NCBI GenBank assembly: GCA_963555815.3
Contig: CAUVWX020000001.1
Location: forward strand, 576,001-640,000
DNA length: 64,000 nucleotides
Reading direction: 5' to 3'
From: a bacterium
Lineage (GTDB): Bacteria; UBA8248; JACPRG01; G963555815
Every line of letters starts with the position of its first letter. The first letter of the stretch is position 1. Below are positions 35,516-37,860 of the stretch, one piece after another. The notes beneath the pieces are model-generated. The model was given only the letters and a program-made list of their open reading frames with translations. It was not told the DNA's origin and searched no databases. The position numbers and the translations under genes were made by a program.

Positions 35516-36886
35516 ATGCGTTTCATCGGTTTCATTGCCCTGGTGGCGGTGACGGTCCTGGGCACCTTCCTTCTCGGTTGGACGCCGAAGCAGATTCTGG
35601 CGACGAGCATTTTCGGGTCCTTTATCTTCGGGACCCTGTTGTACTGGCGTTTTCGCTTGGCCTTTGCCCTGATAGGGACCCTGGCCCTTCTCTCGACGGG
35701 CGTCATCGACCTGCCTCATCTGATCGAGTTTGCCAGCCTCGACGTCATCCTCTTCCTCATCGGCATGATGATCATCATTGGCTTCCTGGAGGAGCGGAAG
35801 TTCTTCGAGGCCATTGTGGAGCCTCTCCTGGGCCGATTTTCGAACCGAACGACCCTTCTCGTGGGAGGGTTAATGGCGGTTTCGGCCCTCACCGCGGCCC
35901 TAGTCGATGAAGTGACCTCAATCCTTTTCATGTCCGCCATTACGCTTCAGATAGCCCGTCGGTACCACGTGAATCCGGTGCCCTTCATCATCATGATCGT
36001 CTTCGCCACCAATATCGGAAGCAGCGCCACGGTGGTCGGAAATCCCATCGGCGTCCTCATCGCGTTTCGGGCGGGGCTGACCTTTGTCGACTTTCTGAGG
36101 TGGGCTACCCCCATTGCCGTCATCTCTCTCGGGCTCTGCATTCCACTGGCGATGTGGTATTTCCGCTCCGAGATCGGCCAGCTTCGAGAGGTCATAAAGG
36201 CCACACCCCCTAGCCCGCACGCTGAAATGGCTCGCCTCTCTCGGTCAGACGCCTACATCTGCACCGCCCTCTTCCTCGGGACCATCGTGGGGCTCATCTT
36301 TCACCACAACCTGGAAGTCCTCCTGGGTCTCGAGAAGAATAGCTTGCTCGTCGGGATCGCCCTCGGGGGGGCAGGAACAGCCCTCCTCATCGAGCAGCAA
36401 GGGGCAAGAGAACTGGTGTCGAAGCGGGTGGACTGGTGGACCCTCACCTTCTTCATGCTGCTCTTCGCCTCGGTCGGGACACTCCGCTTCGTCGGGGTGA
36501 CAGGGCAGATCGCCAACGCCTTTATACAAATTTCAGGGCGGGAGGTCTTGCTCCTTGGAGTGGTGATGTGGGGGAGCGGGATCCTCAGCGCCTTCATGGA
36601 CAATGTCCTGGCCGTCGCCACGATCATCCCGGTCCTTTCAGACCTTCAGGCCCTCGATGTCCCGACCGAGCCCCTCTGGTGGGGTCTTCTCTTCGGCGGG
36701 ACCTTTCTTGGAAATGCGACCCTGGTGGGAAGCACGGCCAATATTGTGGCCCTGGGGATCTTGGAACGAGACGAGAAACGTCATGTGACGTTCATGGAGT
36801 GGCTGAAACCCGGAATCCTGGTGGGCGTTCCCACCCTTCTTTTGGCGCAAATCCTCCTTTCCATCCAGTTCTTCCTTCTGCGATAA
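35516..36886 (+). CDS. ArsB/NhaD/SLC13 family ion transporter
   Basis: Multi-TM; ALVDEVT, ATNIGSSATVVGNP, DNV, GNATLVGSTAN. Confidence 0.9.
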   Translation: MRFIGFIALVAVTVLGTFLLGWTPKQILATSIFGSFIFGTLLYWRFRLAFALIGTLALLSTGVIDLPHLIEFASLDVILFLIGMMIIIGFLEERKFFEAIVEPLLGRFSNRTTLLVGGLMAVSALTAALVDEVTSILFMSAITLQIARRYHVNPVPFIIMIVFATNIGSSATVVGNPIGVLIAFRAGLTFVDFLRWATPIAVISLGLCIPLAMWYFRSEIGQLREVIKATPPSPHAEMARLSRSDAYICTALFLGTIVGLIFHHNLEVLLGLEKNSLLVGIALGGAGTALLIEQQGARELVSKRVDWWTLTFFMLLFASVGTLRFVGVTGQIANAFIQISGREVLLLGVVMWGSGILSAFMDNVLAVATIIPVLSDLQALDVPTEPLWWGLLFGGTFLGNATLVGSTANIVALGILERDEKRHVTFMEWLKPGILVGVPTLLLAQILLSIQFFLLR

Positions 36887-36924: not shown

Positions 36925-36954
36925 TTGACAGTGCGCTCATCCCTCGCCTATAAT
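36925..36954 (+). promoter_or_regulatory. Consensus sigma70 promoter
   Basis: TTGACA 36925-36930, 18 nt, TATAAT 36949-36954. Confidence 0.8.
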
Positions 36955-36957
36955 TAA

Positions 36958-37118
36958 GGCACCGTGAAATGGTAGATTTCCTCTGATGAGGAGCGCACCA
37001 TCGGTCTGAAACCCGCCATATGACGGGCTGAGGGAAAACCGAGCAGGCGCTCTGTGTGCCCCTCAGGTCTCCCCCCTTCATCGGCCCGGGTTTTTGCCCG
37101 GATTGCCGAAGAAAGGAG
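36958..37118 (+). ncRNA. Structured 5' leader (unassigned riboswitch- or ribozyme-like element)
   Basis: Nested helices GGCAC/GTGCC, GAGCGC/GCGCTC, TCGGT/ACCGA, CCCG/CGGG plus a hairpin next to the RBS. Confidence 0.5.
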
Positions 37119-37127
37119 TTGAACCGA

Positions 37128-37667
37128 ATGTCTCGAATTCCACCTCTGGCACCAGATCAGGCCACGGGAAAGACCAAGGAACTCTATGACGGTCTTCAGA
37201 AGAAATTAGGGAAGGTGTTCAACATCTTTCAGGTCATGGGAAACTCGCCAGCCACCCTGCAGGGGTACCTGCAATTTAGTGGCGCCCTGGGGGGCGGCAG
37301 CCTGGACCCAAAGCTCCGGGAGTCTATCGCCGTCCTGACCGGCGAGATTAACGGCTGCCATTACTGACTCGCGGCCCACACAGCGGCCGGGAAGTCGCTG
37401 GGAATGACAGATGAGCAGGTTTTAGACGCCCGCCGGGCCAAGTCATCCGACGCAAAGACGGACGCGGCGCTGAAATTCGTCGAGAAGATCATCAAGCAAA
37501 AGGCCAAGATCTCAGACGGCGACGTGAAGGCCCTCAGCTCCGCCGGCCACTCTAACGGTGACATTTCAGAGATTGTGGCCAACATCGCCCTCCACATGTT
37601 CACCAATTATTTCAACATCTCCATGGACACGGCTGTGGACTTTCCAGAGGCACCCCCGCTGAAGTGA
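37128..37667 (+). CDS. AhpD/carboxymuconolactone decarboxylase-family selenoprotein (CxxU), 179 aa
   Basis: RESIAVLTGEINGCHY-TGA-LAAH; TGA 37365-37367 at the second Cys of NxCxYCxxAH; both ORF halves in frame; AGGAG RBS. Confidence 0.9.
37381..37400 (+). promoter_or_regulatory. Candidate SECIS hairpin of the AhpD gene
   Basis: CAGCGGC-CGGGAA-GUCGCUG, 13 nt after UGA. Confidence 0.65.
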
Positions 37668-37683
37668 TCAGCGAGAGTGGGTC

Positions 37684-37722
37684 GGGCGTCTTGCCCAAGA
37701 TGATGTCTTGGGCAAGACGCCC
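37684..37722. repeat. Perfect 17-bp inverted repeat after ahpD (terminator, 3' stabiliser or REP-like)
   Basis: GGGCGTCTTGCCCAAGA-TGATG-TCTTGGGCAAGACGCCC; no clear U-tract. Confidence 0.8.
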
Positions 37723-37860
37723 ACCCTTCCAAAAGATCCCCTGAATGCAGGGGTGGCCGTGAAGAAAAAAGGGCATATTTTTAGCTAGAAAGTGTTTTTT
37801 AATTAGAAAGGGTTTTGGGGGCACCGTGCGGACACTCTTCGGCCGGAAGAGAGCCAGGTC

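What the first reader, a model, noticed from the sequence alone, without database searches (positions are those of the whole stretch)
36925..37127. Unassigned switch-like RNA with a hammerhead-like core leading the AhpD selenoprotein
Seen: a perfect promoter followed by a leader of about 165 nt. Fold A has nested helices 36958-62/37056-60, 36991-96/37047-52, 37001-05/37038-42 and 37012-15/37024-27. A competing pairing is CTGAGGG 37028-34 with CCCTCAG 37060-66. A hairpin at 37081-37109 can extend via CTCC to cover the GGAG RBS. Fold B places CUGAUGA (36983-89) and GAAA in a three-way junction closed by UUUCCU/AGGGAA, as in hammerheads, but with CUG instead of UH at the cleavage site. Inference: a possibly new translational riboswitch or repurposed ribozyme controlling a Sec peroxidase.
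Basis: partly seen in the sequence, partly recalled or inferred. Interest (0 to 1): 0.7.

Follow-up and report, generated by a model that had tools for sequence, protein, structure and literature searches.

The report
Hammerhead-shaped leader of selenoprotein gene
A strongly folded, uncatalogued RNA leader sits in front of a selenium-containing peroxidase-like gene in one bacterial genus; part of it likely folds like a self-cutting hammerhead RNA that can no longer cut, but a working on/off switch was not shown.

Summary
There is a 12/12 sigma-70 promoter, a ~167-nt leader, and an AhpD/CMD gene with CxxU and a covarying SECIS, in a genome with selB and tRNA-Sec. Rfam gives no match. The leader folds better than all but 3 of 170 other upstream regions, but its conservation is only median (rank 38 of 81). 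It was found only in this genome and one congener (G001).

Fold A is unsupported: it is 12 kcal/mol above the best fold, starts upstream of the likely transcription start, and loses a pair in G001. Fold B, the hammerhead-shaped junction, has modest support. The geometry is rare by chance, no pair breaks in G001, and one firm plus one alignment-dependent compensatory change appear (P about 0.02 and 0.0015 for the fixed fold; 0.26 for any fold). It is not a hammerhead by consensus: U16/H17 fail here and G12 is A in G001. Switching at the ribosome site is predicted only weakly in G001 (~2.3 kcal/mol) and not in the window.

Best reading (0.38): a non-cleaving hammerhead-shaped fold kept as a cis-acting damper. 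Close rival (0.33): an ordinary structured leader with a chance resemblance.

The parts
36925..36954 (+). sigma-70-type promoter, -35 TTGACA, 18-bp spacer, -10 TATAAT (TATAAC in G001); start predicted at 36961
   Evidence: G001; the start position is inference
36961..36973 (+). 5' hairpin with a UGAAA loop; its 3' strand (36969-73) can instead pair with the loop of stem II (36997-37001), a hammerhead-type pseudoknot
   Evidence: (p 0.5 in the window); identical in G001
36977..37036 (+). hammerhead-shaped three-way junction: stem I 36977-83/37030-36, CUGAUGA 36983-89, stem II 36990-95/37002-07, GAAA 37008-11, stem III 37012-15/37024-27, CUG 37028-30 instead of UH
36978..36993 (+). competing local hairpin that hides CUGAUGA; predicted ground state (p 0.62 in both genomes)
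37043..37060 (+). middle hairpin; 8 bp in G001 (p 0.93), 5 bp in the window, which lacks 5 nt present in G001 and in a variant from run X20
37060..37066 (+). strand complementary to the 3' strand of stem I (7 bp in both genomes despite indels)
37067..37113 (+). pyrimidine tract (anti-SD CUCC 37069-72) and a stable hairpin 37077-37113 abutting the SD (core p 0.98)
37113..37118 (+). Shine-Dalgarno AAGGAG
   Evidence: matching 16S 3' end found in the genome
37128..37667 (+). AhpD/CMD-family selenoprotein, 179 aa, CHYU with UGA at 37365-67
   Evidence: selB and tRNA-Sec in the genome
37381..37400 (+). bacterial SECIS hairpin, 7-bp stem, G-containing loop starting 20 nt after UGA; one compensatory and one consistent change in G001

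Best explanation
The leader is a strongly folded 5' untranslated region, found only in this genus, whose first half likely forms a hammerhead-shaped three-way junction that would not cut itself and likely acts in cis as a damper on the AhpD selenoprotein gene. Shown: promoter consensus, gene, SECIS, unusual folding energy, hammerhead geometry, broken catalytic core, survival of all junction pairs in G001. Inferred: that the junction forms in cells, helped by a loop II/5'-strand pseudoknot. Also inferred: that by holding strand 37028-36 it leaves the pyrimidine tract free to extend the hairpin over the Shine-Dalgarno sequence, so junction formation means lower translation. No specific ligand is proposed.
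For: Folding z -3.6, rank 4 of 171 upstream regions; the genome's Rfam-confirmed Moco riboswitch leader ranks 7th. A descriptor set to the observed stems (I>=6, II>=3, III>=4, any 2-3 nt junction) hits only this site in the genome and 2 times in 94 Mb of simulated sequence. Relaxed, it hits 81 times in 116 Mb, 8 of them with >=13 pairs. In G001, 21 of 21 pairs hold and 2 change on both sides. Random placement of the same changes gives P 0.015-0.019 for >=1 compensatory pair with none broken (7 changes) and P 0.0013-0.0016 for >=2 (8 changes). Loop II can pair with 36969-73 (5 bp; 4 bp in G001); about 40% of hammerheads use such a pseudoknot (PMC3088659, passages). The core is broken: C at 16.1 or G at 17 in the window, G12>A in G001. 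One contig from RNA run X12 spans 36972-37128 in one piece across the would-be cut (DNA carry-over not excluded). In G001 SD opening costs 7.2 kcal/mol with the junction and 4.9 without.
Against: Only two full sequences exist. One of the two compensatory pairs depends on where a G insertion is aligned. If any structure may be chosen, >=2 compatible compensatory pairs arise in 26% of simulations. RNAalifold picks a different fold with no two-sided change. The junction is 5-7 kcal/mol above the best local fold and 9-11 above the full-leader ensemble. Descriptor thresholds were set after seeing the site, and a scan of many windows will pick up such near-misses. SD opening does not change between states in the window (5.3-5.6), and the whole footprint is easier to open than the median gene's (8.7 vs 10.8; n=150). 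Conservation is only median (91.7%, rank 38 of 81). No homologue was found outside the genus.
Confidence: 0.38

Rival explanations
1. An ordinary structured leader: a row of local hairpins (36978-93, 37012-27, 37043-60, 37077-113) that sets a constant level of stability and translation; the hammerhead look is a chance near-miss.
For: These hairpins are the predicted ground state in both genomes and all survive the G001 changes. Conservation is median. There is no SD switch in the window. CUGANGA...GAAA...UH without stems occurs 426 times in this genome. The relaxed descriptor expects about 0.4 hits in the genome's intergenic DNA. The any-fold compensation null is 0.26.
Against: It does not explain why the fold drawn from the window alone keeps all pairs and shows two-sided change in G001 (P about 0.02), nor the top-3% folding score.
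Confidence: 0.33
2. A ligand-sensing riboswitch of a new class. The junction is the aptamer; binding of a metabolite or metal ion would stabilise it, free the anti-SD tract and turn translation of the Sec peroxidase off.
For: Architecture: promoter, structured domain, mutually exclusive strands (three SD-like and three anti-SD-like runs), SD hairpin. The junction is metastable, as aptamers often are (established knowledge). A 2.3 kcal/mol shift in the expected direction is predicted in G001.
Against: No shift in the window. No spread across taxa or genes: 2 of 51 class genomes; 0 of 150, 0 of 150 (overlapping sets) and 1 false hit in 150 elsewhere; 0 of 160 AhpD homologue loci. A junction purine changes in G001.
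Confidence: 0.12
3. A slow, still active self-cleaving variant. Either type I cutting near 37030 (window lineage only), or a GCS permutation that uses GAAA 36966-69, CUGAUGA 36983-89 and the triplet AUC 37000-02 and cuts after 37002.
For: G17 hammerheads with tertiary contacts still cleave 8- to 100-fold slower (PMC3884650, passages). In the GCS reading all 13 core nucleotides are present in both genomes, with stem III of 5 bp (4 in G001); permuted hammerheads exist (PMC10085705, passages).
Against: Type I needs a bulge or an A.C mismatch at 15.1-16.1 as well as G17, and G001 lacks G12, the general base (PMC11300833, first part read). GCS has only 2 bp of stem I and 1 bp of stem II. No hammerhead model matched. 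An RNA-library contig spans both sites.
Confidence: 0.08
4. A selenium-sensing leader peptide. The uORF from AUG 36969 (five codons, then UGA UGA; a third UGA at 37029-31) would be read through when Sec-tRNA is plentiful; in the window it is in frame with AhpD.
For: The frame has only UGA stops and is in frame with AUG 37128 in the window; the first seven codons are kept in G001.
Against: There is no SD before either uORF, and the frame to AhpD is lost in G001. Hairpins after these UGAs lack a G at the start of the loop, unlike the gene's own SECIS and other Sec sites in the genome (loop-G criterion in PMC1088965, passages).
Confidence: 0.04
5. Control is by a protein at the DNA level: the imperfect inverted repeat at 36961-73 overlaps the start site like an operator, and the RNA fold is secondary.
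For: The segment is identical in G001. Many homologous AhpD genes lie behind what look like divergent LysR/TetR or sigma-54 promoters (read by eye in the shown part).
Against: No regulator gene is adjacent. A strain variant changes 36962. It does not account for the other 150 nt.
Confidence: 0.05

Closest known systems
Type I hammerhead ribozyme (Rfam RF00163; Perreault et al. 2011, PMC3088659)
   Same: Order stem I - CUGAUGA - stem II - GAAA - stem III - stem I; short stem II; possible loop II pseudoknot; position just upstream of a gene.
   Different: CUG instead of UH at the cleavage site, no adjacent A15.1-U16.1 pair, G12>A in the congener, no covariance-model score; a single copy before a chromosomal redox gene, not clustered in a phage.
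Permuted hammerheads SGC/CSG/GCS (Eckert et al. 2023, PMC10085705)
   Same: A GCS arrangement can be drawn with all core nucleotides in both genomes.
   Different: Stems I and II would be only 2 and 1 bp, with no covariation.
Translational OFF riboswitches such as Moco (RF01055, present in this genome)
   Same: Promoter, structured domain, then a hairpin at the SD; similar folding z-score.
   Different: No family match, no wide conservation, no predicted SD switch in the window, no ligand clue.
AhpD-like/CMD CxxU selenoproteins (Zhang et al. 2005, PMC1088965)
   Same: CxxU motif, in-frame UGA, downstream SECIS with a loop G. The gene is an ordinary member.
   Different: No structured regulatory leader for the family was found in the searches made.
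E. coli selAB leader SECIS-like element (recalled, no call)
   Same: A 5' leader structure in front of a selenium-related gene.
   Different: No SECIS-like loop in this leader; the gene is a Sec user, not Sec machinery.

Membership tests
Hammerhead ribozyme (type I) | C3 U4 G5 A6 N7 G8 A9 | tested here: met
   36983-89 in both genomes
Hammerhead ribozyme (type I) | G12 A13 A14 A15.1 | tested here: not met
   present in the window (37008-11), G12>A in G001; consensus from PMC3088659 methods passage
Hammerhead ribozyme (type I) | U16.1 paired with A15.1, then H17 (not G) | tested here: not met
   junction reads CUG in both genomes; no type I UH register found
Hammerhead ribozyme (type I) | Three stems closing the core | tested here: met
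   6, 3 and 4 contiguous pairs in both genomes; 10.1-11.1 is G.U
Hammerhead ribozyme (type I) | Stem I/stem II tertiary contact | tested here: inconclusive
   5-bp (G001 4-bp) loop II/5'-strand pairing possible, no covariation
Hammerhead ribozyme (any type) | Rfam covariance-model match | tested here: not met
Hammerhead ribozyme (any type) | Site-specific self-cleavage | not testable with these tools
   one RNA-library contig spans the site uncut, weak
Permuted hammerhead (GCS) | Full core plus three stable stems | tested here: not met
   core present; stem I 2 bp, stem II 1 bp
Translational riboswitch | Aptamer conserved across taxa with covariation | tested here: inconclusive
   two sequences only; 1-2 compensatory pairs; not found elsewhere
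Translational riboswitch | Alternative folds that open and close the SD | tested here: inconclusive
   no difference in the window, 2.3 kcal/mol in G001
Translational riboswitch | Specific ligand binding and regulation | not testable with these tools
   needs probing and reporters
AhpD-like selenoprotein | CMD/AhpD domain with CxxU, SECIS, Sec machinery | tested here: met
Sec-sensing leader peptide | Translatable uORF with UGA followed by a SECIS-like loop, frame conserved | tested here: not met

The most novel reading that the evidence does not exclude
A natural, catalytically dead hammerhead ribozyme repurposed as the sensor of a translational switch (metal, redox or selenium metabolite) that controls a selenocysteine peroxidase.
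Probability: 0.13. Interest if true: 0.85.

Novelty: new variant of a known kind. Interest (0 to 1): 0.4.

Why it matters
If the junction is real and regulatory, it would be a natural case of a ribozyme fold kept after loss of catalysis. It would also be an RNA leader on a bacterial selenoprotein gene, for which the literature searches made here gave no precedent. Both natural alleles are short and can be tested directly. If the junction is not real, this is an ordinary leader of one genus and of little interest.

Tried and rejected
Fold A: -54.7 vs -67.1 kcal/mol; helices A2 and A3 below p 0.08; one A3 pair broken in G001.

L135 (Chloroflexota) looked like a distant homologue but is the 3' end of an M-box riboswitch. 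L402 (17.8 bits) lies antisense in a dnaN-gyrB gap with a poor stem II. L446 and L440 are inside coding sequence.

Pattern scans: 72 genome loci, 70 in stop-free frames of >=191 codons, the other two being G001 and L135. 83 genome loci, only G001 passing the descriptor. Plasmid and phage blastn gave only E 0.5 hits. No second copy in the own genome.

No intrinsic terminator in the leader. No thermometer-like SD melting. Resemblances to SAH, NiCo, glycine, TPP and guanidine-III riboswitches were recalled from memory and none scored in Rfam. RNA runs give no cover upstream of 36972 (X12) or 37105 (X15), but lack of contig cover proves nothing about the start.

The 160 AhpD homologues were retrieved partly with Cys-containing patterns, so '0 of 160 with Sec' is biased. 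Look-ups of earlier findings by sequence and place were empty. PMC10418091 (passages) and PMC5737381 (two passages) did not bear on it. The organism was not identified.

Full report
Observation. The sequence carries a 12/12 sigma-70 promoter at 36925-54 and an ORF-free leader up to AUG 37128. The gene encodes a 179-aa CMD/AhpD protein with CHYU. Its SECIS hairpin (37381-400) shows one two-sided and one consistent change in the congener G001/L009. The genome has selB and tRNA-Sec. AhpD-like CxxU selenoproteins are known (PMC1088965, passages). The start site is inferred at 36961, so the outer fold-A helix would be largely untranscribed. One contig of RNA run X12 covers 36972-37128; it shows presence only.

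More than chance? The 167-nt leader has z -3.6. Of 170 other upstream regions sampled from 568, 3 fold better, and the Rfam-confirmed Moco leader ranks 7th. Sequence conservation is ordinary: 91.7% to G001, rank 38 of 81 orthologous intergenic regions from a 400-kb stretch. Rfam gives nothing at gathering score, and at E<=10 only five irrelevant miRNA/snoRNA hits.

Distribution. The leader was found in G000 and G001 only. Blastn of 61 genomes and a covariance model of fold B over 51 class genomes (2 of 51) found no other copy. The model found 0 of 150, 0 of 150 (overlapping sets) and 1 of 150 genomes in other phyla, the one hit being coding. Pattern scans of the genome and viral collections gave no homologue. 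None of 160 AhpD homologue loci (about 41-55% identity) has a similar leader (best nhmmer E 3.4). In 5 of 5 family relatives the downstream M48 gene follows a cupin-like gene instead, so the leader-gene unit is particular to this genus at this place. A third, partial variant in run X20 keeps 5 nt that the window lacks.

Which fold? The predicted ground state is a row of local hairpins plus the 37028-34/37060-66 pairing. Fold A lies 12 kcal/mol higher and loses a pair in G001. Fold B lies 5-7 kcal/mol higher locally and 9-11 in the full leader, but is the fold the substitutions fit best. All 21 pairs hold, 36992/37005 changes AU>GC, and 36978/37035 changes UA>CG if the G insertion is placed in register. 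With the fold fixed, chance is 0.015-0.019 without the second pair and about 0.0015 with it. With a free choice of structure it is 0.26, and RNAalifold prefers another fold. The hammerhead geometry itself is rare: 2 hits in 94 Mb with thresholds tuned to the site, and 0.70 per Mb relaxed, against 5 relaxed hits in the real genome. A scan of many windows will still collect such near-misses, so I put the chance that the junction is a real, selected fold at about one half.

Is it a hammerhead? By the consensus used in PMC3088659 (methods passage and section 8) it is not: U16.1/H17 fail in both genomes and G12 is A in G001. G17 alone would not exclude slow cleavage (PMC3884650, passages), but G12 is the general base (PMC11300833, first part). 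An exhaustive test of block permutations found only a GCS reading, with a full core but 2-bp and 1-bp stems (permutations in PMC10085705, passages).

Mechanism. The leader has three SD-like purine runs and three complementary pyrimidine runs. If the junction holds strand 37028-36, the tract 37067-78 can extend the stable hairpin 37077-113 over the SD. If that strand pairs with the tract instead, the SD is freer. The model predicts this difference in G001 (7.2 vs 4.9 kcal/mol) but not in the window (5.5 vs 5.3), and the ribosome footprint as a whole is not unusually closed (8.7 vs median 10.8, n=150). So damping is plausible and switching is unproven. A UGA uORF sensor was tested and fails on SD, frame and SECIS shape.

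Novelty. Searches for riboswitch + CMD, selenoprotein + riboswitch + AhpD, and AhpD + structured RNA returned no paper. Listings for selenium leaders and non-cleaving hammerhead-like RNAs showed no match by title or abstract start. A 2026 preprint reports divergent hammerhead candidates below Rfam thresholds (passages; no mention of AhpD; supplements not seen). Two unchecked notes of this scan describe hammerhead-shaped leaders with changed cores in phages; I did not test any relation.

Verdict: a real structured leader of a known selenoprotein, with a modestly supported non-cleaving hammerhead-shaped domain, confined to two genomes. Interest 0.4.

Noticed in passing
window 37679-37726: Long near-perfect hairpin (about 22 bp, -43 kcal/mol) just after the AhpD stop, with two compensatory changes in G001, no U tract, single copy in the genome; likely a 3' stabiliser or terminator-like element.
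   Followed up: partly
window 36969-36989: uORF of five codons ending in tandem UGA UGA, in frame with AhpD in the window only.
   Followed up: yes
window 36956, 36962, 37127: Strain variants in runs X7/X16 (36956, 36962) and X6/X7/X20 (37127); none falls in the junction.
   Followed up: partly
window 35516-36886: Upstream ArsB/NhaD-like (CitMHS) transporter, not found with this query in 5 of 5 family relatives.
   Followed up: partly
L435:255-373 (G000 C1 near 1019500): Moco riboswitch before a moaA-like gene, followed by a very long hairpin.
   Followed up: partly
L436 (G000 C1 near 405100-405290): Structured leader with a terminator before a DAHP-synthase-like gene; looks like an attenuator, no Rfam hit.
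   Followed up: no
L433 (G000 C1 near 223850-224020, minus strand): Strongly folded leader with a terminator-like hairpin before a cold-shock protein gene; no Rfam hit.
   Followed up: no
L432 (G000 C1 near 235820-235990, minus strand): Row of strong hairpins (z -4.4) before a DegP-like protease gene; no Rfam hit.
   Followed up: no
G000 C1 994249, 992190, 628154, 582574, 1028120; C2 498129: Further candidate Sec codons with SECIS-like hairpins (AhpD-like, thioredoxin-fold, peroxiredoxin-like, HMA-like), seen.
   Followed up: no
L160 and L161, 220 nt upstream of the AhpD homologue: Unrelated structured-looking leaders without an Rfam match.
   Followed up: partly
L135:86-265: M-box riboswitch in a Chloroflexota MAG before a small ORF and an MgtC-like gene.
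   Followed up: yes
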